Of a DNA stretch of 64,000 nucleotides, positions 5,096 to 63,986 are shown one piece after another. Below the pieces are notes generated by a model that did not search any database, was not told where the DNA came from, and saw only the letters and a program-made list of their open reading frames with translations. Positions within the stretch are counted from its first letter, which is position 1. Every line of letters starts with the position of its first letter. The position numbers and the translations under genes are program-made. The DNA comes from an uncultured Amphritea sp. (GTDB lineage: Bacteria > Pseudomonadota > Gammaproteobacteria > Pseudomonadales > Balneatricaceae): assembly GCA_965140695.1 (NCBI GenBank), contig OZ223297.1:2218325-2282324 (forward strand), in the 5' to 3' direction.

Positions 5096-5992
5096 TTAAA
5101 TCGAAATTTTACTAACCTGATACAGCCCGCCGAGCACAATATATTCACTCTCACATCTGAATGCGCCGGGCAGCAGGTCGGGGAAGAACAGGATCTTACT
5201 GAAGGGCACCTGGCATTGCAGCAGGGTGTCGCCAAAGCTGTCGCACTGCTCCAGGCTGCTGCTGAAGGAGGTCAGGTTGTTAAGAATCACCGCTGAACGG
5301 GTTTTTGACCCCTGAAACAGGGTGTCGTATTCATCCAGCCGGTTAGTGGCGCGATAGAGTTTGTAATGTCGGCGGTCCGGGAAACGCCGGTGCAGTTCAT
5401 ACTGGCAATAGCTGTACAGCAGATCCAGCTGGCTTTCCAGACTGTTGGTGTTGTACAGACCGGCACTGCGTTCCTGAGTGTAGTTGAAGTAAATCTCTGA
5501 TTCGAAATCCCGAAGCGGGCCTTTGTGATTGCGGGCCAGTAAGCCAAAGCGGGACTCTACCCAGCCTTTCATCACGGCGGCTTCACGGCTGTCAGAATCA
5601 AATAGCCAGCCACGTAATAAGCGCCGGTAATCAGCCTTGTGGCGTGCTTTTTTGTTGTTTTTTCGAACCGCGTTTACTGCCACAGATGCCCGTTCAGTTT
5701 GTTGATAGCCCGCTTCTTCCGGGGCGGAAAGCAGAAACGATGCCTGCATATAGGTTTCAAACGCCATCGCTCTGTCAGCGGGCGCGTCAATCTTATCCAA
5801 ACGGTTAAACAGGGATTGATGAAAGGTTGCCACATTATCGAGAAAGATCGCTTCGGGATAGCGTTGAAATGTCAGGCTGCCCAAGATGATGGCAGGGTAA
5901 TTGCAATGGTTCACCGGCAGGCGTGCGTAAGCGGGCAGTGTCGGTTCACCAGGGGCTATATGATGGATCAGTTCTAAGGGGGAGTCTGCCAT
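5096..5992 (-). CDS. draT: NAD+-dinitrogen reductase ADP-ribosyltransferase
   Basis: ARLPVNHCNYP, RLLRGWLFDSDSREAAVMKGWVESRFGL, LDLLYSYCQYEL, LNNLTSFS and ESEYIVLGG motifs; start 5992 or 6010. Confidence 0.92.
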   Translation of the reverse strand: MADSPLELIHHIAPGEPTLPAYARLPVNHCNYPAIILGSLTFQRYPEAIFLDNVATFHQSLFNRLDKIDAPADRAMAFETYMQASFLLSAPEEAGYQQTERASVAVNAVRKNNKKARHKADYRRLLRGWLFDSDSREAAVMKGWVESRFGLLARNHKGPLRDFESEIYFNYTQERSAGLYNTNSLESQLDLLYSYCQYELHRRFPDRRHYKLYRATNRLDEYDTLFQGSKTRSAVILNNLTSFSSSLEQCDSFGDTLLQCQVPFSKILFFPDLLPGAFRCESEYIVLGGLYQVSKISI

Positions 5993-6079
5993 GCGTTGTA
6001 AAATCTTCATCGACACGTGTCGCACTATTATATGGGCGATGGTCACTTGCCGGGTGATCTGCGTCAATAAGGAGGGAAA

Positions 6080-7009
6080 ATGGTTTCACTCAATGAGCGT
6101 TATCAGGGCTGTCTACTCGGGCTGGCGGTGGGCGATGCGATCGGTACCACGCTGGAGTTTAAGCCTCCCGGTAGTTTTACGCCGATTGACGATATGCTCG
6201 GTGGCGGCCCGTTTTATCTGCAACCGGGGCAGTGGACCGACGATACCTCGATGGCGATCTGTCTGGCGGAGTCACTGCTTGAGTGCAACGGTTTTGATGC
6301 CGGAGATCAGATGCAGCGCTACACTCGCTGGTGGAAGGAGGGGCGACACAGCAGCACCGGACGCTGCTTTGATATTGGCGCCACGGTAGCGAATGCGCTG
6401 CATCTGTTTGAATCTTGTGGTGAACCCTTCAGTGGTGATGATCATCCGCTGTCTGCCGGTAATGGTTCATTGATGCGGCTGGCGCCGGTGGTGCTGTATT
6501 ACAGTGAACACCCGGGGCTGATGGACTTTGTTACAGACGCTTCCCGCACAACCCATGGGGCACCGGAGTGTATTGATGCCTGCTGTTATTTCGCAGCCAT
6601 CATTGCCCGCTGTATCCATGGTGCTAATAAAAATATGCTGATGTCATCTGCAGGCTATCTGCCGCAGAGCAAGAAGGTCAGGCTGATTGCAACCGAGGAG
6701 TTTCTGCAGAAACCGATTACCGAGATCCGCGGCAGTGGCTATGTGATCGATTGCCTTGAGGCGGCGCTGTGGTGTTTTTTCCATACCGAGAGTTTTGATG
6801 ATGCGGTTTTGATGGCGGCTAATCTGGGGGATGATGCCGACACCACGGCGGCAGTGTGTGGCCAGATCGCCGGAGCGTACTACGGAATCAACGGTATCAG
6901 AAGCTCCTGGCTTGATCTGCTGCATGAGAAAATATTTTTGCTGTCGCTGGCGGATCAGCTCTATCTGCAAACAAGCGAAGCCAGGCTGAGCGCTGAGCTG
7001 ATGAGTTAA
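6080..7009 (+). CDS. draG: ADP-ribosylglycohydrolase (dinitrogenase reductase activating)
   Basis: GLAVGDAIG, GQWTDDT, AGNGSLMRLAP and NLGDDADTTAA motifs; AGGAGG RBS; adjacent to draT. It could be a non-nif DraG-family paralogue. Confidence 0.8.
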   Translation: MVSLNERYQGCLLGLAVGDAIGTTLEFKPPGSFTPIDDMLGGGPFYLQPGQWTDDTSMAICLAESLLECNGFDAGDQMQRYTRWWKEGRHSSTGRCFDIGATVANALHLFESCGEPFSGDDHPLSAGNGSLMRLAPVVLYYSEHPGLMDFVTDASRTTHGAPECIDACCYFAAIIARCIHGANKNMLMSSAGYLPQSKKVRLIATEEFLQKPITEIRGSGYVIDCLEAALWCFFHTESFDDAVLMAANLGDDADTTAAVCGQIAGAYYGINGIRSSWLDLLHEKIFLLSLADQLYLQTSEARLSAELMS

Positions 7010-35087: not shown

Positions 35088-35567
35088 AGGGCCTCCTTGA
35101 TCGTGATGTTATTAACGTAGTTGGTGCTGCAGGTGATGTCCGAGTGTGCTTTATCTTAATGAGGAAAACAAATAATACTCTGGATGAAAGGTTCCACTAA
35201 CGGATATTCCGTGTACCCCCGTTGTTGATTCTCTTAGATGATGAGACACGGGCCGGATGGCAGGAGAGAGTGGGGTTGTTTACTCGTTCAACTCTCTGGC
35301 TTCAACTATCCAGTTGCAAACAGGGTTAGCTACTGGAATAAGGGATAAAAGTGGTGCATTATCAGGCTGATAGGGAAATGGCGGGTGACAAAGGGTGCCA
35401 TCACAACATAGCAAAGCGTGCTTGCGTGTATTCAGGGGATGAAACTGGCTTTTTTCAGAATTACTTTTTCAATATCAAATAGATACAGTGTCCTCCATCA
35501 CCGTCTAGCGGTGTCAAAATACGCCAGCACATTATTATAATGTCAGAACAAACAAGGGATAAATATC

Positions 35568-35963
35568 GTGCCAAGAAGGCTAACTCAAACTAAACCCGGG
35601 ACACACCAAGCACTTAAAAACACATCTTACGAAAGCATGGTCGTAAGTTGGCTTATGCAAGATGGTTGGCAAGTGTTTTTACCCATCTTAGATCATGGGC
35701 ATCAGACAGATATCCTTATATCAGATGGGCCTAGCTACTACAGAATCCAAGTCAAAACTGTAGAAGCAAGTGGTGAAGACCACATAGTTCATAATGCCTG
35801 GGAAGGAAGTAATGTAGATGTTGTCATTTTCTTTGCTAGAAATTCCAATTGGGGGGTCATCGCTCCAGCATTTACAGAAAAGAAACGGGCATTGAATCAC
35901 GAAGGTCATCGTAAGTTTACTCAGGACAGAAAAGAGTTCTTACGTGAATTTCATCAACTCTAA
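35568..35963 (+). CDS. Cassette 1: small PD-(D/E)XK nuclease
   Basis: E...TDILI...RIQVKT catalytic pattern; TAA stop lies inside the attC inverse core. Confidence 0.75.
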   Translation: MPRRLTQTKPGTHQALKNTSYESMVVSWLMQDGWQVFLPILDHGHQTDILISDGPSYYRIQVKTVEASGEDHIVHNAWEGSNVDVVIFFARNSNWGVIAPAFTEKKRALNHEGHRKFTQDRKEFLREFHQL

Positions 35964-36007
35964 CAAGAGAAACCACCCGACGCATACTGCGTGGCTGCTT
36001 TAAGCGT

Positions 36008-36740
36008 GTGTGCCGGACTTGGCACTTAACTAGCGAGGTGAAAGTCCTCTTACTAGGTATTCGCAGAATCGAAGGTTAGCCAAAGGGCAAGGTTAGTTCC
36101 GCGAGGGATTGGCTGGGGGAATCTCAAGGCGCAATCGCGGGGCGATGAACAAGAACCGGATATGAGGTGTGACATAAGGGGGGGCTAACAGGCACGTGAC
36201 TGCTAAGCTCTTCATCTGGCTTATGTTATATTGAATTAAAGAATACGGGATTTACTGTCAGTCCCCGATGCGGCAACAGAATCAAAGTGGCCGACAAGGC
36301 GCTGGTGAAGCTAAAGCTGCGGGTACAGGAACTGAGCCGTCGAACGAGAGGCCATCAACTGTTACATGTCATCGCAGACTTAAGGAAATACCTGCTTGGT
36401 TGGAAAGAGTACTTCGGCGTAGCCGAGGTGCAGAGCCCGCTGCGTGACATCGACAAATGGATCAGACGGAAGTTGCGGTGTTATATCTGGAAGCAATGGG
36501 GCCCTAGTGGTTATCGTCAACTGCGCCGATGGGGAGTAGATCTCTGGACGGCTTGGAATACGGCGAAATCGGCTCATGGGCTTTGGCGTTTAAGCAAAAG
36601 TCCTGCACTCTATAGAGCATTGCCAAACATATATTTTAAAGGCTTGTGGCTGTCATCACTGGCAGCGTGATAATAGATGAGGCTGTGGTACGTGACCCGT
36701 ATGCCCGGTAGTGTGGGAGGAGGGGCACCCCTATCCCGAT
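36008..36740 (+). mobile_element. Internally deleted class C group II intron (733 nt)
   Basis: 5' end GTGTGCCGGACTTGGCAC...GGTGAAAGTCC; degenerate DV TGTGGTACGTGACCCGTATGCCCGG; DVI with bulged A ending CCTATCCCGAT; RT domain absent. Confidence 0.85.
36245..36670 (+). pseudogene. ltrA: Remnant of intron-encoded protein: maturase/domain X only
   Basis: GFTV...NRIKVADKAL...LLGWKEYF...DKWIRRKLRCYIWKQWG...AKSAHGLWRLS; no YADD RT core. Confidence 0.85.
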
Positions 36741-36773
36741 TAGATTTCATAAGCGTTTTTCACGGTACTCTTA

Positions 36774-37697
36774 ATGGATGATGAATTAACCAGCGTCTAT
36801 GAACGCATTGATCGAATACTCAACCCACATCGAAGGTGGCAAAAGCGAATAGATCGAATTCTGGAACCTCAGCGTAGGCTTCAGGAGCCGATGGAGAAGT
36901 ATCTTGAACCGCAACGCCGACTTCAGGAGCAGATGGAGAAGTATCTTGAACCGCAACGCCGACTTCAGGAGCAGATGGAGAAGTATCTTGAACCGCAACG
37001 CCGGCTTCAGGAGCAGATGGAAAAGTATCTTGAACCGCAGAGACGGCTTCAAGAGCAACTAAACAAGATACTTGAGCCCCAGCGATTGCTTCACGACCAA
37101 ATCAACAAGTATCTTAATCCATTAAACGATTATCTTTCTAGCCCTCTAATGGATCTCATCGCGATTGGAAGCGATGGCGTAATCTCTGTATCAGAGGAAA
37201 TCGTTGATATCCAGGAGATAAATGACAGCGTTGAAAGCATATCTAAAGATTATTTAAGTGCTGAGGAATTTTTAGAGCAATTATTTCATATCCTGGAAAA
37301 ACTAGGTAACGGTGCGCGCATAGTCGTTATTTATTTAATTTTGCCATATTTTCTGGCAATCATTGCCAATTTAACAACACCAATTTATGAAGAATGGTGG
37401 AAGGAATATGCAGATTACGACCAGCGAGAAGCAAAAAAAGAGATTATTCGTGAAGCACTCGACCTATACAGCATAGAACAATTATTCGAATATCGTTTTG
37501 TTTATGCATCAACACTTAATGTCCGAGAATCTGGGAGTATTAAGTCTAAAATTACTGGCGTGCTGCACCTTGGAAAAGCGGTAAAACTTATTAATAAGGT
37601 GAAAAGCTGGTCCTTTATCGAATATCAAGACTCCTTGACTAACGAGATTAAGCAAGGCTGGGTGTTTTCAAGATATTTACAGAAATTTGAAAAATGA
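36774..37697 (+). CDS. Cassette 2: tandem-repeat protein with C-terminal bacterial SH3-like domain
   Basis: About 7 x 14-aa repeats, a hydrophobic segment (IVVIYLILPYFLAIIANL), then LNVRE...G...W SH3-like motif. Confidence 0.8.
   Translation: MDDELTSVYERIDRILNPHRRWQKRIDRILEPQRRLQEPMEKYLEPQRRLQEQMEKYLEPQRRLQEQMEKYLEPQRRLQEQMEKYLEPQRRLQEQLNKILEPQRLLHDQINKYLNPLNDYLSSPLMDLIAIGSDGVISVSEEIVDIQEINDSVESISKDYLSAEEFLEQLFHILEKLGNGARIVVIYLILPYFLAIIANLTTPIYEEWWKEYADYDQREAKKEIIREALDLYSIEQLFEYRFVYASTLNVRESGSIKSKITGVLHLGKAVKLINKVKSWSFIEYQDSLTNEIKQGWVFSRYLQKFEK
36816..37109 (+). repeat. 42-bp in-frame tandem repeat, about 7 units
   Basis: Core unit CTTGAACCGCAACGCCGACTTCAGGAGCAGATGGAGAAGTAT; central copies near-identical. 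Confidence 0.92.
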
Positions 37698-37698
37698 A

Positions 37699-37770
37699 AT
37701 CTAACAAGGCGCTCGTTTGGAAGCTAATTACGCTGCTCTTCGTTCGCTCCGCACAGTTTGGTCGTTAAGT
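37699..37770 (+). repeat. attC site 2 (degenerate)
   Basis: ATCTAAC at 37699 directly after the stop; GTTAAGT at 37764; interior AAGGCGCTCG...TACGCTGC...CGCACAG resembles gammaproteobacterial attC. Confidence 0.7.
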
Positions 37771-37778
37771 GAACGCTG

Positions 37779-38084
37779 ATGATGGAAGACTGGCCACAAT
37801 TTATCGGACTGACCTTAGGGTTGCTAATCGCTATCCCGATCGGTATTCATATGTTTCGTGAGTGCTTCAGGAGCTATAACCAGTTCCAGAAAGAGATGAA
37901 GGAGACCGGAGGGAGTGAAGAAAGAAAACTATATGATGGAGAGTTCAAAAAAGCTGTCAATCATCAGTTTATTGAATTCAAAGCCGGTTTTGCGTTGGTT
38001 TTCCCAATCATTATTTTTTTGATTACCTACTTCCTTACGTCCTCAATTGCAGAAACTGCGTTTAATCTTTATCGGGGGTCTTAA
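37779..38084 (+). CDS. Cassette 3: small two-TM membrane protein
   Basis: Two hydrophobic helices; starts 9 nt after the attC2 core. Confidence 0.7.
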   Translation: MMEDWPQFIGLTLGLLIAIPIGIHMFRECFRSYNQFQKEMKETGGSEERKLYDGEFKKAVNHQFIEFKAGFALVFPIIIFLITYFLTSSIAETAFNLYRGS

Positions 38085-38145
38085 ATTGCCGTATGTGCCG
38101 GGAGACACGTAGCAGTAGCGGATCATCGCTACGCTCATACACTGT

Positions 38146-38525
38146 CTCGTTCCCACGCTCCCGCGTGGGAATGCATACCGAACTTTAGCAACCACACTTC
38201 GCACCTTGGCGGTGTAGCACTTTATTCCGGTGTTTATACGCCCGGAAACAGCCAATACTCTGTTCGATGTCCTGCACTTTTTTAAGCAAAGATCTTATAA
38301 GAAGGTGGTTATAAAACTACTGTCACTTTGAGATGATAAGTAAGTCTATGAATTAATTAGTTTTTTATACAAGCCCTATAAGAGTGATCGACTTTATCAA
38401 TTTTTACCGAAAGACGTGTATTCAGTGCTGATCTAAAGTGAGGGTATGATGCGTTAAAACATGACTAATTTACTAAAATCCGCTCAGGCGAGGTATGCAT
38501 TCCCACGCGGGAGCGTGGGAACGAG
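38146..38525. repeat. Inverted REP pair: 38146-38177 (+) and 38494-38525 (-)
   Basis: Same 32-nt REP, enclosing about 316 bp of AT-rich non-coding DNA. Confidence 0.9.
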
Positions 38526-38590
38526 TAAAAATCTCTCCAGATTCTTTTCTCTGTGCCCTCTGTGGTAAAACGCCCTGATCCCTTTAGGAA

Positions 38591-38854
38591 TTAATCATCG
38601 TCGTCATCATCATCGTCGTCAGGAACGCGGATGATTTTGCGATAGATCTCAATCCGGTCGCCCTCCTCAAGAGCAGCGTTCAGCCGTGTGAGTTTGCCGA
38701 AGATACCGATCTTCTGGGTTTTCAGGTTGATCTCCGGGCATTGCTCCAGAATCTGGGATGCTTCGATGGCGGTTTCTACCGTCGCACTGTCATCGATCTC
38801 GATATCGGACCAGAGTTGTTTTTTTTCACCGGCGTAAGCGATTGATACTTTCAT
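38591..38854 (-). CDS. rnfH: RnfH (ubiquitin-like)
   Basis: GIFGKL...LEEGDRIEIYR; acidic tail. Confidence 0.92.
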   Translation of the reverse strand: MKVSIAYAGEKKQLWSDIEIDDSATVETAIEASQILEQCPEINLKTQKIGIFGKLTRLNAALEEGDRIEIYRKIIRVPDDDDDDDDD

Positions 38855-39537
38855 GCAGACTCCTCCTGCAAGTGTCCCTGAATGGCGTTTCTGCGAGCCT
38901 CCAGTTTACGGTCGGTAACCCGTTTACCGGCCAGAATCAGACCCAGACAGATAAAGCCTCCCGGGGGGAGTATCAGTAACAGTGTGCCGCCGTAATCGGG
39001 AAAAATGGTCAGCTCAATAAAGGAGAAGCTTTCTCCCAGCAGTAGTGATGCATCCGCGAACAGGGTGCCACTGCCAAACAGTTCCCGCATGCCGCCCAGC
39101 AGCACCAGCACCCAGGTAAAGCCGATTCCCATTGCCAGTCCATCGATCATTGAGGGACCGACATTGTTTTTTGAGGCAAAACTTTCCACCCGGCCAAGGA
39201 TGGCGCAGTTGGTGACGATCAGGGGAATAAACAGACCCAGTACCTGATAGAGTTCATGCATCCAGGCGTTAAGGAACATATCCACCAGGGTCACCATCGC
39301 GGCGATCAGCAGGATAAAGACCGGTATCCGTACCTGCGGGGTGATAATCCCTCTGATCATCGACACCAGCATGTTCGAAGCGAGCATCACCGCCAGGGTG
39401 GCGATACCCATGCCCAGGCCATTACTGGCGGTGGTGGTGACGGCCATCAGTGGACACAACGCCAGCATCTGCCCGAGTACGACGTTATTGTTCCACAGTC
39501 CGTCAGCCCAGATCTCTGCGTAGGATTGCTGTGTCAT
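38851..39537 (-). CDS. rnfE: Rnf complex subunit E
   Basis: LALCPLMAVT, LIVTNCAILGR and LPPGGF motifs. Confidence 0.93.
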   Translation of the reverse strand: MTQQSYAEIWADGLWNNNVVLGQMLALCPLMAVTTTASNGLGMGIATLAVMLASNMLVSMIRGIITPQVRIPVFILLIAAMVTLVDMFLNAWMHELYQVLGLFIPLIVTNCAILGRVESFASKNNVGPSMIDGLAMGIGFTWVLVLLGGMRELFGSGTLFADASLLLGESFSFIELTIFPDYGGTLLLILPPGGFICLGLILAGKRVTDRKLEARRNAIQGHLQEESA

Positions 39538-40205
39538 TGTGAACTCTCCTGCCCGGATGCAACCGGAGTACTTAGCTTTGACTCGATGTTGGCGCGTTGC
39601 TGGTCGAAATGTATCAGACCGGTTTTCACCGCTTTAACAACCGCTCTGGGGGTAATGGTGGCACCGGTAAACTGGTCAAAATCACCGCCATCTTTTTTTA
39701 CCTGCCATTGAGTTGCCGAGTGGTTTTCCAGCGAATAGCCATTAAAAGAGGTGATCCAGTCGTTCTTTTTAATCTCTATTTTATCCCCCAGCCCGGGGGT
39801 TTCTGCGTGGCTGATGGTACGTACGCCGGTAATTTCGCCTTTCTCATTTATACCCAGAAGCAAGACGATATCGCCGCTATAACCTTTACCGACCACCTCC
39901 ATAGCGAGGCCGGAGAACTGTCCATTCCGGGTTGCAAGATAGGCAACGTCATGGCCAGGAAAGGGACTGTCTTTCAGTGTATAGCGCAACTCCAGCGGAT
40001 TATTGTCGTAAAGATCTGCGGGCAGCACCTGATCCAGCATGACCCGGGTGTCCTCTTCCAGTCGTAAACGGATATCGTCCCGGGTACTCTGATCACCCAT
40101 GATCAGCAGCAGGCTGATGATGGTTGCCATACCGCCGAGCAAACCGGCCTGATAACCGATGCGGTGAGTGAAGCTGGGGATTGCAATCGCTCTGGTGGGC
40201 TTCAT
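39534..40205 (-). CDS. rnfG: Rnf complex subunit G
   Basis: GYSGDI, HAETPGLG and FTGATITP (FMN attachment) motifs. Confidence 0.93.
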   Translation of the reverse strand: MKPTRAIAIPSFTHRIGYQAGLLGGMATIISLLLIMGDQSTRDDIRLRLEEDTRVMLDQVLPADLYDNNPLELRYTLKDSPFPGHDVAYLATRNGQFSGLAMEVVGKGYSGDIVLLLGINEKGEITGVRTISHAETPGLGDKIEIKKNDWITSFNGYSLENHSATQWQVKKDGGDFDQFTGATITPRAVVKAVKTGLIHFDQQRANIESKLSTPVASGQESSQ

Positions 40206-40224
40206 TGTTTACTCCTCTTTATCA

Positions 40225-41298
40225 CTACTCTTTAGCCGCTTTCAGGGGCGCGCCCTTGTAGTCGTAGCCATAGATTCTTGGACGGAAGTAGCGATCGATT
40301 ATCGGTGTCAGTGCATTCATAAACAGCACCGCGAAGCCGATCGCCTCTGGGAAGGAGCCCCAGGTGCGAATGGTGAAGGTGACCAGACCGATACCCATGC
40401 CGTAGATCAGCTGACCTTTGATGTTTGAGGGGGATGTCACCGGATCGGTGGCGATAAAGAAGGCCCCAAACATCAGTGCGCCTGACAAAAGATGATAGAT
40501 CGGTGGGGCGTATCGCTGAGGGTCAATACTGTTAAAGATAAGTGCCATCAGCGCCACTGTCAGTATCAGGGCGACGGGGATATACCACTGAATCACTCTT
40601 TTCCAGATCAGGAAAATGCCGCCAGCCAGCATCAGAAGAGCGGAGGTTTCACCCAGACTACCGCGGGTAAAACCGGTCAGGGCATCGTTAAGACTGAAGA
40701 TCTCTCCGACCGAAACCGTGGCGGGGATAGCGGCGGTCAGCGCTGTTTTGACATGTCCCAGGGCGGTAGCGCCGGTGAGCGCATCGCTCAGGGGCGCTGC
40801 CAGAAAGGTGATCTCCAGGCCTTCAATAAAACCGGGCGCGGCGGCATCCGTTATTGGGATAACATTGGCCCAGGTTGTCATCTCCAGCGGGAACGAGATC
40901 AGCAGTCCAACCCGGGTTAACATGGCGGGATTAAACAGATTTTGTCCCAGTCCTCCGTAGAGATGTTTACCGATGACAATGGCGAACAGCGTGCCGGTAA
41001 CGGCCAGCCACCAGGGGCCCCAGGGAGGGAGAGTCATGGCAATGATCCAGCCGGTTAATATGGCAGAACCATCCAGAGCAAAACTCAGGCGTTTACCTGC
41101 CAGTGACAGACAAAACAGTTCTCCCGCCACAGCTGAGCCGACACAGAGAAACCAGATGTTTATCGCGGGCCAGCCAAACAGATAGAACCCCAGCAATGTC
41201 GCGGGGAGTAGCGCAAAGCAGACCAGATACATTGTCCTTTCGACAGAGCTGCGATCATGCGCATGGGGGGATGAGATCATCATATTACTCACAGTCAT
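40225..41298 (-). CDS. rnfD: Rnf complex subunit D
   Basis: SSPH, GGLGQNLFNPA, TGAT, GSLGETS and ATDPVTSP motifs. Confidence 0.93.
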   Translation of the reverse strand: MTVSNMMISSPHAHDRSSVERTMYLVCFALLPATLLGFYLFGWPAINIWFLCVGSAVAGELFCLSLAGKRLSFALDGSAILTGWIIAMTLPPWGPWWLAVTGTLFAIVIGKHLYGGLGQNLFNPAMLTRVGLLISFPLEMTTWANVIPITDAAAPGFIEGLEITFLAAPLSDALTGATALGHVKTALTAAIPATVSVGEIFSLNDALTGFTRGSLGETSALLMLAGGIFLIWKRVIQWYIPVALILTVALMALIFNSIDPQRYAPPIYHLLSGALMFGAFFIATDPVTSPSNIKGQLIYGMGIGLVTFTIRTWGSFPEAIGFAVLFMNALTPIIDRYFRPRIYGYDYKGAPLKAAKE

Positions 41299-41303
41299 AG
41301 TGC

Positions 41304-42776
41304 TCAGACCTTCTCAATTTGACTTTTAGCTTTCTTGCGGGCTGCTGCTTTCGCTGCCTTTTCCGCTTTAGCAGCGGCTTTCGCTGCGGCCTCTTTTTCC
41401 TGACGTGCCATGCGTGCCTCAGAAAGCGATTTGGTGAGTTCCCCTTTTCTGGCCTGAATCTGATTCTCACGATGCTTGCCTTTGGCAAACTGGAAGTAGT
41501 GCACCAGAGGGATATGAGAGGGGCACACATAGGCGCATGAACCACACAGAATGCAATCTTTCAGGCCGAATTCGTTGGCTCCGTCGTAGTCGTCTGCCCG
41601 GGAGTGGCGAGCCATCTCCAGCGGTAACAGGCCCATGGGGCAAGCCTGAACACAGCTACCGCAGCGAATACAGGGAGAGACATCCGCAGAGTTAATCTCC
41701 TCCTCTGTGAGTGCCAGTATTGCGCTGGCGCCTTTCGTTATCGGCACCCCGGTATTGGGAAGAATCTGGCCCATCATCGGCCCACCCATCAGCATCCGGG
41801 CAGGTGTTGAGGCCAGCCCACCGCTCTGTTCCAGCACCCACTGTACCGGCGTGCCAATCAGTACTTCGACATTCTGAGGTGTTTCAAGAGACTGTCCTGA
41901 AAGTGTTACCACCCGGGATATCAGCGGGCGTGACTGATAGATGGCCTGATGCACCGCAAATGAGGTGGCGACGTTGTGAACCAGCACGCCGATATCGGAA
42001 CTGCGACCGCCGGTCGGCACTTCCTGGCCGGTAATGATTTTGATCAGTTGCTTGGCGGAGCCCATCGGATAACGGGTTGGAATCACGCGGATCTCTACAT
42101 TGTCATACGCCTGGGCGGCATCCTGCATCGCTCTGATCGCTTGAGGTTTGTTGTCTTCTATACCGGCGATAATTTTTTCCGCATTAATCGCTCTCAGGAT
42201 AAGCCGGGCACCACTGATGATCTCGACTGCACGTTCACACATCAGCATATCGTCACAGGTGAGATAAGGCTCACATTCGCTGCCGTTCAGGATCAGGGTA
42301 TGAACATTTTGCCGGGAACCCGCTTTCAGTTTCAGGGCGGCGGGATAGGTGGCGCCACCCAGTCCGACAATACCGGCGCTATCTACCAGATCAGCGATCG
42401 CTTCAGCGCTCAGATGGTCTGGATCAAGCCTGTTTTCCGGGAGATAAGCGGTATCCAGTCCATCGGGTTCAATATGAATCGCATCGTAGCTCAGAAGAGA
42501 GGGGTGGGGGGCCTGAATCTGACCAATACCCAGAACCTTTCCTGATGTTGGCGCATGGATAGAGGCGGAGCGGTCACCGGCGTTGCTACCGATCAGCTCA
42601 CCTTTTAAGACATGCTGGCCCGCTTCAACCACGGGGATGGCCGGTGAACCCGCATGCTGACTGAGCGGAATCGACAGCAGGGGGGGGATGCCCAATACCC
42701 GGATCGGTTTGTCGGTACTCTGCTCTTTACGCTCATCGGCGTGAACGCCGCCCCGGACTTTAAATTTCATCAACAT
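41304..42776 (-). CDS. rnfC: Rnf complex subunit C
   Basis: GIVGLGGATYP, NGSECEPY, CIRCGSCVQACP and CILCGSCAYVCP motifs. Confidence 0.94.
   Translation of the reverse strand: MLMKFKVRGGVHADERKEQSTDKPIRVLGIPPLLSIPLSQHAGSPAIPVVEAGQHVLKGELIGSNAGDRSASIHAPTSGKVLGIGQIQAPHPSLLSYDAIHIEPDGLDTAYLPENRLDPDHLSAEAIADLVDSAGIVGLGGATYPAALKLKAGSRQNVHTLILNGSECEPYLTCDDMLMCERAVEIISGARLILRAINAEKIIAGIEDNKPQAIRAMQDAAQAYDNVEIRVIPTRYPMGSAKQLIKIITGQEVPTGGRSSDIGVLVHNVATSFAVHQAIYQSRPLISRVVTLSGQSLETPQNVEVLIGTPVQWVLEQSGGLASTPARMLMGGPMMGQILPNTGVPITKGASAILALTEEEINSADVSPCIRCGSCVQACPMGLLPLEMARHSRADDYDGANEFGLKDCILCGSCAYVCPSHIPLVHYFQFAKGKHRENQIQARKGELTKSLSEARMARQEKEAAAKAAAKAEKAAKAAARKKAKSQIEKV

Positions 42777-63089: not shown

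Positions 63090-63986
<897 letters not shown>

What the first reader, a model, noticed from the sequence alone, without database searches (positions are those of the whole stretch)
35958..36745. Miniature group IIC intron inserted in the cassette-sense strand of an attC core site
Seen: a 733-nt element with both class C intron ends, retaining only the maturase tail. Removing it rejoins GCGT|TAGAT into a GTTRRRY core. That core is the exact complement of the downstream cassette's inverse core ATCTAAC (37699). Known: described IIC-attC introns (S.ma.I2, N.e.I1) target the bottom strand at TTGT|TA, antisense to the cassettes. Here the intron is sense to the cassettes, one base from the G|TT crossover point. 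Inference: it destroys that recombination site, locks cassettes 1 and 2 together and places intron RNA inside the cassette transcript. The DV triad looks mutated (GAGGCTG rather than GAACCGC), so it may be splicing-dead. A candidate EBS1 (CTAACAG, 36185-36191) fits TTGT better than GCGT, suggesting an ectopic insertion.
Basis: partly seen in the sequence, partly recalled or inferred. Interest (0 to 1): 0.8.

Follow-up and report, generated by a model that had tools for sequence, protein, structure and literature searches.

The report
Decayed group IIC intron splitting attC
A broken 733-base leftover of a mobile group II intron sits inside the recombination site between two integron gene cassettes, but its position and orientation are normal for its intron lineage, so it is an ordinary fossil and not a new kind of insertion.

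Summary
Bases 36008-36740 (+) are a 733-nt derivative of a class C group II intron. It is inserted at GCGT|TAGAT in the R' core of an attC site, on the strand that carries the cassette ORFs.

The novelty reading does not hold.
- 33 of 36 related intron copies end their 5' exon in CGT, and none ends in TTGT.
- All share an invariant loop, GCACGUGA, whose ACGU pairs with that exon end.
- Upstream ORFs and hairpin bulge asymmetry show that the lineage normally enters the attC top strand, sense to the cassettes.
- The same junction and orientation occur in clinical class 1 integrons: aadA1 attC in pR148 and seven more plasmids, and aacA4 attC in pPp47.
- One such case was published in 2012.

The copy is dead. 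A 1.09-kb deletion removed the 3' part of domain I, domains II-III and the reverse transcriptase. Ten bases are missing at the base of domain V and twelve from domain VI.

It sits in a small cassette island of an Amphritea-like chromosome, with no integrase found among the ten ORFs tested. Interest is low.

The parts
35568..35963 (+). Cassette 1 ORF (131 aa). Its stop codon overlaps R'' of attC1.
   Evidence: ORF list. Only a weak, sub-threshold PD-(D/E)XK match.
35958..36007 (+). attC1, 5' part on the top strand: R'' CTCTAAC (35958-35964), both arms of the hairpin, and the first two bases (GT) of R'. This is the intron's 5' exon, ending in IBS1 GCGT.
   Evidence: Sequence. The rejoined bottom strand folds at -13.2 kcal/mol, z = -5.1, with the extra bases on its 3' arm. 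It closely resembles the aadA1 attC.
36008..36232 (+). Retained 5' part of intron domain I. It starts GTGTGCCGG.
   Evidence: 87% identical to L001 positions 1-232. RF02001 hit. Alignment.
36192..36199 (+). EBS1 loop GCACGTGA. ACGT at 36194-36197 pairs with IBS1 GCGT.
   Evidence: The loop is invariant or nearly so in about 37 related copies, and the flanking stem covaries.
36233..36246 (+). Joint of the 1.09-kb internal deletion, about 14 nt of filler. Lost: the 3' strands of domain I, domains II-III, the 5' arm of domain IV, and IEP residues about 1-304 (the RT domain).
   Evidence: Window 36005-36231 matches L001 1-232 and 36247-36728 matches L001 1326-1817. The intact relative L002 has RF01998 (57 bits) in the lost part.
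36247..36670 (+). Remnant of the intron-encoded protein (X/maturase tail). An ORF is open from GTG 36287 to the stop at 36670.
   Evidence: GIIM, E = 1.6e-13. Equals residues 305-444 of the pR148 intron protein at 71% identity. 87% identity to L001.
36681..36712 (+). Domain V remnant. A 10-nt deletion at 36682|36683 removed the base of the helix and the first base of the CGC triad. There is also a C>T change, and a G>A change in the 3' strand.
   Evidence: Alignment with 69 related 3' ends, family consensus GAACCGCCGUG(G)UACG...CGUAUGCCCGGUGGU. No RF00029 hit at E <= 10, against 27 bits in L002.
36715..36740 (+). Domain VI remnant and 3' end. A 12-nt deletion at 36728|36729 removed the distal stem and loop. 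The basal stem, the bulged A (36733) and the terminal GAT are kept.
   Evidence: Alignments.
36741..36745 (+). attC1 R', 3' part (TAGAT). These are the first bases of cassette 2 and the intron's 3' exon (IBS3 = T).
   Evidence: Sequence. All related 3' exons start with T.
36774..37697 (+). Cassette 2 ORF (307 aa; C-terminal SH3_3 domain; internal 42-nt tandem repeats).
37699..37770 (+). attC2-like site: R'' ATCTAAC, complementary to the rejoined R' of attC1, and a possible R' GTTAAGT. There is no convincing hairpin.
   Evidence: Sequence. Folds at -3.5 kcal/mol, z = +2.2. Similar sequences occur in two other contigs of run X1.

Best explanation
The element is the non-functional relic of a group IIC (class C) intron. 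It belongs to a lineage whose normal target is the top strand of integron attC sites, directly after the hairpin, inside the R' core (RCGT|TRRRY).

**How it arrived (inferred from the anatomy)**
- A full-length copy of about 1.84 kb retrohomed into the attC of cassette 1.
- It recognised the attC top-strand stem-loop as a IIC intron recognises a terminator hairpin.
- EBS1 (ACGU, in the loop GCACGUGA) paired with IBS1 (GCGU). EBS3 paired with the first T of the 3' exon.
- This put it in the same orientation as the cassette genes, one base 3' of the integrase crossover point.

**How it decayed (shown)**
- A 1.09-kb deletion removed the 3' strands of domain I, domains II-III, and the reverse transcriptase.
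- A 10-nt deletion removed the base of domain V.
- A 12-nt deletion removed the distal part of domain VI.

**What it does now (inferred)**
- It can neither splice nor move.
- It is co-transcribed as a 733-nt unspliceable spacer between the two cassette ORFs.
- It leaves only 2 of the 7 bases of the R' box next to the hairpin, so attC1 should no longer be recombined by an integron integrase.
For: **Intron homology**
- RF02001 hit and GIIM hit.
- 87-90% nucleotide identity to the full-length Amphritea pacifica copy L001 on both sides of the deletion.

**Lost parts**
- The intact relative L002 gives RF02001 at 126 bits, RF01998 at 57 bits and RF00029 at 27 bits.
- The window gives only RF02001, at 45 bits.
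- The deletions are mapped.
- Other deleted copies (L044, L052, L056, L057) have different end points, which points to independent decay.

**Target rule of the lineage**
- 5' exons end in ACGT in 20 copies, GCGT in 10, TCGT in 2, and something else in 3. None ends in TTGT.
- The EBS1 loop is invariant and its stem covaries.

**Strand**
- In the window, ORFs are on the + strand.
- The bottom-strand fold has its extra bases on the 3' arm, like the aadA1 control.
- R' is complementary to the next cassette's R''.
- In relatives, a co-oriented ORF ends within 170 nt upstream in 21 clear cases, against 5 opposite.
- The 5' arm carries more unpaired bases in 20 of 27 hairpins.
- In L002, four upstream ORFs are co-oriented with the intron.

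**Same junction in annotated class 1 integrons, with the intron gene sense to the cassettes**
- pR148: aadA1 attC ...CTCAAGCGT|GTGTG...CCCGAT|TAGATGC.
- pPp47: aacA4 attC ...CAAACGT|GTGTG...CCCGAT|TAGATGC.
- Nine plasmids in all carry these introns.

**Literature**
- A top-strand, sense-oriented IIC intron in an Enterobacter cloacae integron is cited in PMC7923331.
Against: - No transcript or splicing data exist for this organism, so 'cannot splice' rests on the missing domains.
- The EBS1-IBS1 pairing is supported by invariance and complementarity. It is not supported by compensatory change: the five 5' exons that do not end in RCGT keep essentially the same loop (L060 has one substitution outside ACGU).
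- The attC was not scored with IntegronFinder's covariance model.
- Its bulged bases are not the canonical G and T.
- The window was not exhaustively searched for an integrase. Only ten ORFs of about 290-380 aa were tested.
- The 127-codon maturase remnant is still an open frame, which leaves room for residual function.
Confidence: 0.85

Rival explanations
1. It is a streamlined, non-autonomous 'mini-intron' that still splices or moves using a maturase/RT supplied in trans by full-length copies in the genome.
For: - Both intron ends, the EBS1 loop, the basal stem of domain VI and the branch A are kept.
- Full-length relatives, about 95% identical, occur in the same sequencing samples.
- Several other short derivatives exist in other genomes.
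Against: - The 3' closing strands of domain I, all of domains II and III with the J2/3 linker, and the base of domain V are gone. These form the catalytic core, which a protein cannot replace (general knowledge of group II ribozymes).
- The other short derivatives have different deletion end points.
- There is no second copy in the window.
- There is no exact match in 185,579 representative genomes.
Confidence: 0.04
2. It is a classical IIC-attC intron in the bottom strand of an inverted cassette, so nothing about the strand is unusual.
For: - attC sites are near-palindromic. Both strands read RYYYAAC...GTTRRRY, so the sequence boxes alone cannot tell the strands apart.
- Five of about 28 relatives have an opposite-strand ORF upstream.
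Against: - IBS1 is GCGT, not TTGT.
- The extra unpaired bases lie on the arm expected for a + top strand.
- All three island ORFs are on the + strand.
- TAGAT after the intron matches the R'' of the next + strand cassette.
- In two annotated class 1 integrons the same junction is unambiguously top strand.
Confidence: 0.03
3. The hairpin is an ordinary terminator-like palindrome, not an attC, and the locus is not integron-derived.
For: - IIC introns usually insert after terminators (PMC4424553).
- No integrase was found among the ORFs tested.
- The second 'attC' does not fold.
- The island sits between housekeeping genes.
Against: - The rejoined site has both core boxes, a 6-bp R box, an asymmetric unpaired spacer (4 versus 5 nt) and a bulge on the expected arm.
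- There is no T-run after the hairpin.
- It closely resembles the aadA1 attC: TCTAACAA...CCGACGC...AAGCGTTAGAT.
- Its R' matches the next cassette's R''.
Confidence: 0.05
4. The relic has been exapted. Either the 127-aa maturase-tail ORF makes a protein, or the insertion is retained because it stabilises the two-cassette unit.
For: The ORF 36287-36670 is uninterrupted and 87% identical to the functional relative.
Against: - Amino-acid identity (87%) is lower than nucleotide identity (90%) over the same stretch, so there is no clear sign of purifying selection.
- No homologous stand-alone gene was seen.
- Everything around the ORF is decaying.
Confidence: 0.03

Closest known systems
Group IIC introns inserted in the attC top strand of class 1 integrons: the pR148-type intron at aadA1 attC, the pPp47 intron at aacA4 attC, and the 'unusual' Enterobacter cloacae intron of Rodriguez-Martinez et al. 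2012 (J Bacteriol 194:150, as cited in PMC7923331)
   Same: - Same junction, RCGT|TAGAT inside R'.
- Same orientation as the cassettes.
- Same 5' end, GTGTG(C/T)CGGGC.
- Same EBS1 loop, and the same domain V/VI consensus.
- The protein tail is 71% identical to the pR148 intron protein.
   Different: - The window copy is 733 nt instead of about 1,840 nt and lacks the catalytic core and the RT.
- It lies in a chromosomal cassette island of an Amphritea-like bacterium, not in a mobile class 1 integron.
- I could not read the 2012 paper or its sequence, so identity of that intron with the plasmid introns is assumed, not shown.
Group IIC-attC introns (S.ma.I2, E.c.I7, Kl.pn.I1, N.e.I1, G.s.I1, Sh.ba.I2)
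   Same: - Class C introns that use a folded attC strand as the stem-loop in place of IBS2.
- They insert at GT|T just 3' of the hairpin, and so split a core box of the recombination site.
   Different: - They enter the bottom strand at R'' with IBS1/IBS3 TTGT/T.
- They lie antisense to the cassettes, block Pc transcription and carry outward promoters (PMC3001079, PMC7923331).
- The window's lineage enters the top strand at R' with RCGT/T and lies sense to the cassettes.
Generic class C introns after intrinsic terminators (for example B.h.I1, O.i.I1)
   Same: - Stem-loop plus a 3-4-nt IBS1 as the target.
- No endonuclease domain in the protein: RVT_1 plus GIIM only in the relatives.
- Insertion downstream of, and co-oriented with, the preceding gene (orientation from my own knowledge of Robart et al. 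2007, cited in PMC4424553).
   Different: Here the hairpin is an integron recombination site, not a terminator.
Truncated introns in cassette arrays and CALINs (UHB.F1, H.ha.F1, H.ha.F2; PMC7923331)
   Same: Degenerate intron fragments left inside cassette arrays that lack a nearby integrase.
   Different: Those are a 5'-truncated bottom-strand IIC-attC intron and class E/IIB fragments. This one keeps both ends and has internal deletions.

Membership tests
Group II intron, class C (functional member) | 5' GUGYG and 3' AY boundaries | tested here: met
   GUGUG at 36008 and ...CCCGAU at 36740, in register with more than 35 relatives.
Group II intron, class C (functional member) | Complete domain I | tested here: not met
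   RF02001 scores 45 bits, against 126 bits in the intact L002. The 3' closing strands, from intron nt 226 onward, are deleted.
Group II intron, class C (functional member) | Domains II-III and the J2/3 linker | tested here: not met
   RF01998 hit in L002 (57 bits) but none in the window. The region lies inside the 1.09-kb deletion.
Group II intron, class C (functional member) | Domain V helix with catalytic triad (CGC in this family) | tested here: not met
   A 10-nt deletion removes the helix base, so the triad reads GGC and its partners are mismatched. No RF00029 hit at E <= 10.
Group II intron, class C (functional member) | Domain VI with bulged branch-point A | tested here: inconclusive
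   The basal stem and A36733 are kept. The distal 12 nt are deleted.
Group II intron, class C (functional member) | Intron-encoded RT + X protein without an endonuclease domain | tested here: not met
   Only the X tail remains (GIIM; residues 305-444 equivalent). Relatives have RVT_1 plus GIIM.
Group II intron, class C (descent from a member) | Sequence homology to full-length class C introns over both retained parts | tested here: met
   87-90% nucleotide identity to L001 and homology to 78 loci.
Group IIC-attC lineage (S.ma.I2 type) | Insertion into the attC bottom strand at R'' | tested here: not met
   Inserted in the top strand at R'.
Group IIC-attC lineage (S.ma.I2 type) | IBS1/IBS3 consensus TTGT/T | tested here: not met
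   GCGT/T here. Of 36 relatives, 33 end in CGT/T and none in TTGT.
Group IIC-attC lineage (S.ma.I2 type) | Orientation opposite to cassette transcription | tested here: not met
   Same strand as the cassette ORFs here, and in pR148 and pPp47.
Group IIC-attC lineage (S.ma.I2 type) | IEP falls in the monophyletic S.ma.I2 clade | not tested
   No S.ma.I2-type sequence could be retrieved. PMC7923331 calls the published top-strand intron 'not a IIC-attC'.
Top-strand attC-targeting IIC introns (pR148 / pPp47 / E. cloacae type) | Insertion at GT|T of R' on the top strand, sense to the cassettes | tested here: met
   AAGCGT|TAGAT, identical to the pR148 aadA1 junction.
Top-strand attC-targeting IIC introns (pR148 / pPp47 / E. 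cloacae type) | Shared RNA and protein sequence family | tested here: met
   Shared 5' end, EBS1 loop and domain V/VI consensus. 71% amino-acid identity in the tail.
attC recombination site | R'' RYYYAAC and R' GTTRRRY boxes | tested here: met
   CTCTAAC (first base C, not R) and GTTAGAT after excision.
attC recombination site | Bottom-strand hairpin with R box, unpaired spacer, L box, and extra bases on the R''/L'' arm | tested here: met
   -13.2 kcal/mol, z = -5.1. 6-bp R box, spacer of 4 versus 5 nt, one bulge on the 3' arm. The bulged base is C, not the canonical G or T.
attC recombination site | Last six bases of R' belong to the next cassette and match that cassette's own R'' | tested here: met
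   TTAGAT at 36740-36745 against ATCTAA(C) at 37699-37705.
attC recombination site | Score with the IntegronFinder attC covariance model; recombination by IntI | not testable with these tools
   The model is not available, and the rejoined sequence cannot be given to the model-search tool.
Integron / CALIN | Integrase gene next to the array (integron), or at least two attC sites without one (CALIN) | tested here: inconclusive
   None of ten ORFs of 290-381 aa tested is an integrase. There is only one well-folding attC. The second site has the boxes but no hairpin.

The most novel reading that the evidence does not exclude
The relic itself is ordinary, but it points to a large, coherent lineage of class C introns that specialises on the top strand of attC sites.

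- It is found in Gamma- and Betaproteobacteria, with several copies each in some genomes.
- Its target is the R' core, with IBS1 RCGU matched by an invariant ACGU-bearing EBS1 loop.
- It mirrors the well-known bottom-strand IIC-attC lineage (R'' core, TTGU).

If this lineage has not been described as such, then four nucleotides of EBS1 may decide which strand of the same DNA hairpin is invaded. That in turn would decide whether the intron rides inside the cassette transcript or blocks it.
Probability: 0.3. Interest if true: 0.5.

Novelty: new member of a known kind. Interest (0 to 1): 0.22.

Why it matters
For this locus it matters little. It is a dead intron copy that has probably frozen one attC site in a small cassette island with no integrase identified in the window.

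The wider point is a correction. The textbook rule 'introns in attC sites are bottom-strand and antisense' holds for one lineage only.

A second lineage routinely enters the top strand at R', in the sense orientation. It is already present in clinical class 1 integrons next to aadA1 and aacA4/blaIMP-4 arrays.

For functional copies this orientation means the intron is transcribed from the integron promoter. It could then splice out of the cassette mRNA, while still disabling the attC at the DNA level. This is relevant to cassette fusion and to how such arrays should be annotated.

Tried and rejected
- **Home-made attC scanner** (AAC...GTT with a forced R box plus MFE) over the whole window. 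It gave dozens of hits inside ordinary genes on both strands, so it was too unspecific to map the array. Targeted folds were used instead.
- **Exact-word scans of representative genomes.** The intron 5' end and the attC2 5' half each gave no match.
- **Exact-protein look-up** of the neighbouring GST-like gene: not on record.
- **Papers not held.** Leon & Roy 2009 (two papers) and Rodriguez-Martinez 2012 could not be read, so their content is cited only through PMC3001079 and PMC7923331.
- **Retrieving a classical S.ma.I2-type intron** for a direct EBS1 and IEP comparison. The distant DNA search found only the same nine plasmids. A 48%-identical E. coli plasmid hit was not in an integron.
- **RNA-seq evidence:** no RNA runs were found.
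- **'Empty-site' joint 35188>38145 in run X1.** Rejected as an empty site. The right-hand side is only 34 nt of a repeated REP-like element, and the related Amphritea genome has different content there.
- **Second intron 5' end at 38093-38112.** It resembles the first 20 nt of the family (1-12 of 500 shuffles score as well against two of four references) but nothing follows it. Left unresolved.
Full report

Yes. Rfam's group II model RF02001 (D1-D4-3) matches 36095-36270 on the + strand at 45.4 bits, above its gathering score of 32. The ORF 36287-36670 carries the maturase-specific domain GIIM, E = 1.6e-13.

A search with that protein tail found 78 related loci in representative genomes. The closest are Amphritea pacifica, Marinobacterium litorale and Nitrincola.

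Alignment with these loci fixes the ends:
- 5' end: GCGT|GTGTGCCGG, at 36007|36008.
- 3' end: ...CTATCCCGAT|TAGAT, at 36740|36741.

Excision rejoins GTTAGAT. ATCTAAC at 37699-37705, directly after the next ORF's stop codon, is its exact complement. Contigs of an independent public run match with no differences across both junctions, so this is not an assembly artefact.

**2. What is left of the intron?**

Three deletions separate this copy from full-length relatives of about 1,840 nt.

(a) Window 36005-36231 aligns to L001 1-232, and 36247-36728 aligns to L001 1326-1817. So 1,093 nt are replaced by about 14 nt of filler.
- In the intact relative L002 the lost stretch holds the 3' closing strands of domain I and the RF01998 match (57 bits), which covers domains II-III.
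- It also holds the first roughly 300 codons of the protein, which is the whole RVT_1 domain.
- What remains of the protein equals residues 305-444 of the pR148 intron protein, at 71% identity.

(b) Domain V. The family consensus is GAACCGCCGUG(G)UACG-loop-CGUAUGCCCGGUGGU.
- The window reads GAUGAGG|CUGUGGUACG..., which lacks AGAUGAACCG.
- It also has a C>U change, and a G>A change in the 3' strand.
- The base of the helix and the first base of the CGC triad are lost.
- RF00029 scores 27 bits in L002 and gives no hit in the window even at E <= 10.

(c) Domain VI lacks 12 nt (UGUGAGGUGCCU) of its distal part. The basal stem and the bulged A are kept.

A ribozyme without the closing strands of domain I, without domains II-III and the J2/3 linker, and with a damaged domain V cannot catalyse splicing. 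A maturase supplied in trans would not help (inference from established group II biochemistry).

Four other shortened copies (L044, L052, L056, L057) have different deletion end points. These are independent decays, not a propagating mini-element.

**3. Is the insertion ectopic?**

No. Among 36 related 5' junctions, the 5' exon ends as follows:

| 5' exon end | copies |
|---|---|
| ACGT | 20 |
| GCGT | 10 |
| TCGT | 2 |
| CGT (contig cut short) | 1 |
| other | 3 |
| TTGT | 0 |

Every 3' exon starts with T.

About 185 nt into the intron, all copies carry the loop G-C-A-C-G-U-G-A. It is closed by a short stem that covaries: GCGG/CUGC, GUCG/CGAU, GUGG/CCAC, GCGG/CCGC, and CAG/CUG in the window. 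ACGU in this loop is complementary to RCGU.

This is the EBS1-IBS1 pair; in the window, ACGT lies at 36194-36197.

One caveat applies. The few atypical 5' exons are not compensated in the loop, so the assignment rests on invariance and complementarity.

**4. Which strand, and is that unusual?**

In the window the + strand is the attC top strand.
- The cassette ORFs are on the + strand.
- The complement of the rejoined site folds into an attC-type hairpin: -13.2 kcal/mol, z = -5.1.
- That hairpin has a 6-bp R box, a spacer of 4 versus 5 nt, and a bulge on its 3' arm. The aadA1 attC bottom strand, folded as a control, shows the same arrangement.
- The bases after the intron match the R'' of the next cassette.

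But this is the lineage's rule.
- Upstream of the related introns, a co-oriented ORF ends within 170 nt in 21 clear cases, against 5 opposite.
- The hairpin's 5' arm carries the extra unpaired bases in 20 of 27 relatives. They typically lie in a CGGAC/CCGAC motif like that of aadA1.
- L002 lies behind four co-oriented small ORFs and ahead of a toxin-antitoxin pair, a typical cassette array.

Two annotated class 1 integrons settle the matter.
- In pR148 the order is intI1(-), qacL, blaOXA-10, aadA1, intron ltrA(+), qacEdelta1. The junctions are ...GGCTTAACTCAAGCGT|GTGTGTCGGGC and CCCGAT|TAGATGCACTAAG. This is the same AAGCGT|TAGAT site as in the window.
- In pPp47 the order is blaIMP-4, qacG2, aacA4, intron(+), qacG2, qacEdelta1. 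The junctions are ...CATGTCAAACGT|GTGTGCCGGGC and CCCGAT|TAGATGC.
- Nine plasmids from seven genera carry these introns.

**5. Literature**

Group IIC-attC introns (S.ma.I2 and relatives) are described as follows (PMC3001079; PMC7923331):
- They insert into the attC bottom strand at R'', with consensus TTGT/T.
- They lie opposite to cassette transcription.
- They carry outward-facing promoters.

[quoted passage not shown] It is inserted in the top strand, in the cassette orientation (Rodriguez-Martinez et al. 2012). I could not read that paper.

A second, top-strand kind is already on record and is common among this element's relatives.

**6. Context**

The window comes from an Amphritea-like, nitrogen-fixing gammaproteobacterium.
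- The GST-like neighbour is 95% identical to that of an Amphritea MAG.
- draT/draG, rnf and nifH are in the window.

The island 35189-38558 lies between that GST-like gene and rnfH. In the related genome it is replaced by different DNA with an IS110-type transposase.

None of ten ORFs of about 290-380 aa tested in the window is an integrase.

The only well-formed attC is the interrupted one. The site after cassette 2 (37699-37770) has both boxes but no hairpin (-3.5 kcal/mol, z = +2.2), and nothing convincing follows the third ORF.

So 'locking cassettes 1 and 2 together' is mechanistically reasonable. In the bottom strand the R' box becomes ATCTA-[733 nt]-AC, which leaves 2 of its 7 bases beside the hairpin. 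But the island shows no other sign of being recombination-competent.

**7. Most likely history and present effect**

1. A full-length intron retrohomed into the single-stranded or extruded top strand of attC1. It used the hairpin plus the 4-bp EBS1-IBS1 and 1-bp EBS3-IBS3 contacts (inferred).
2. This is the usual class C habit of landing behind the hairpin that follows a gene, co-oriented with that gene.
3. In that orientation a live intron would be transcribed with the cassettes and could splice out (inferred).
4. This copy then lost its core.
5. Today it is an unspliceable 733-nt spacer in any cassette transcript and a permanent disruption of attC1.

**8. Verdict**

The element is an ordinary decayed member of a known kind.

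What deserves a specialist's attention is not this copy. It is the breadth and uniformity of the top-strand lineage, which the accessible literature treats as a single oddity.

Noticed in passing
window 38142-38170 and 38494-38522: An inverted pair of a REP-like palindrome (GTTCCCACGCTCCCGCGTGGGAATGCAT) flanks about 320 nt. The element shows very high depth in public runs, and similar pieces occur at the same locus in a related Amphritea genome.
   Followed up: partly
window 38093-38112: TGTGCCGGGAGACACGTA resembles the first 20 nt of this intron family, GTGTGCCGGGCATGGCACGTA. In shuffle tests, 1-12 of 500 shuffles score as well against two references. No further intron sequence follows. It may be a stump of a second insertion or chance.
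   Followed up: partly
window 37699-37770: The attC2-like site has R''/R' boxes but no hairpin. In run X1 two other contigs, at much higher depth, carry similar sequences (6-7 differences) that end in ...GCTTAACGTTAGGG or ...CTTTAACGTTATGTG. This suggests a shared repeat family of unclear structure.
   Followed up: partly
window 36860-37115: The cassette 2 ORF contains 4-6 tandem 42-nt repeats, encoding (E/N)KYLEPQRRLQEQM units, ahead of a putative membrane segment and a C-terminal SH3_3 domain.
   Followed up: partly
window 35189-38558 versus L081 3183-5900: The whole island between the GST-like gene and rnfH is replaced in a related Amphritea MAG by unrelated DNA carrying an IS110-family transposase. 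This intergenic site is a variable hotspot.
   Followed up: partly
L029, L031, L051, L054 (Parashewanella MAG); L033, L035, L036, L038 (betaproteobacterial MAG); L028, L030 (Noviherbaspirillum): Several genomes hold two to four or more copies of this intron lineage at different attC-like sites, so the lineage is actively proliferating in some hosts.
   Followed up: no
L005 2914-4476 and 6975-7746; L060 5833-5877 (-): One Sansalvadorimonas locus holds a full-length and a shortened copy 2.5 kb apart. A Microbulbifer locus holds an inverted partial 3' end next to a full copy. Both are signs of repeated invasion and decay within arrays.
   Followed up: no
window 5096-7009 and 63114-63986: DraT and DraG homologues (nitrogenase ADP-ribosylation switch) and NifH lie in the window, together with rnf genes at 38591-42776. 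The host is a diazotroph.
   Followed up: no
runs X1 and X3: Full-length relatives of the intron, with 1,112 nt between window positions 36218 and 36247, are present in the same samples as the relic. Whether they are in the same genome is unknown.
   Followed up: partly
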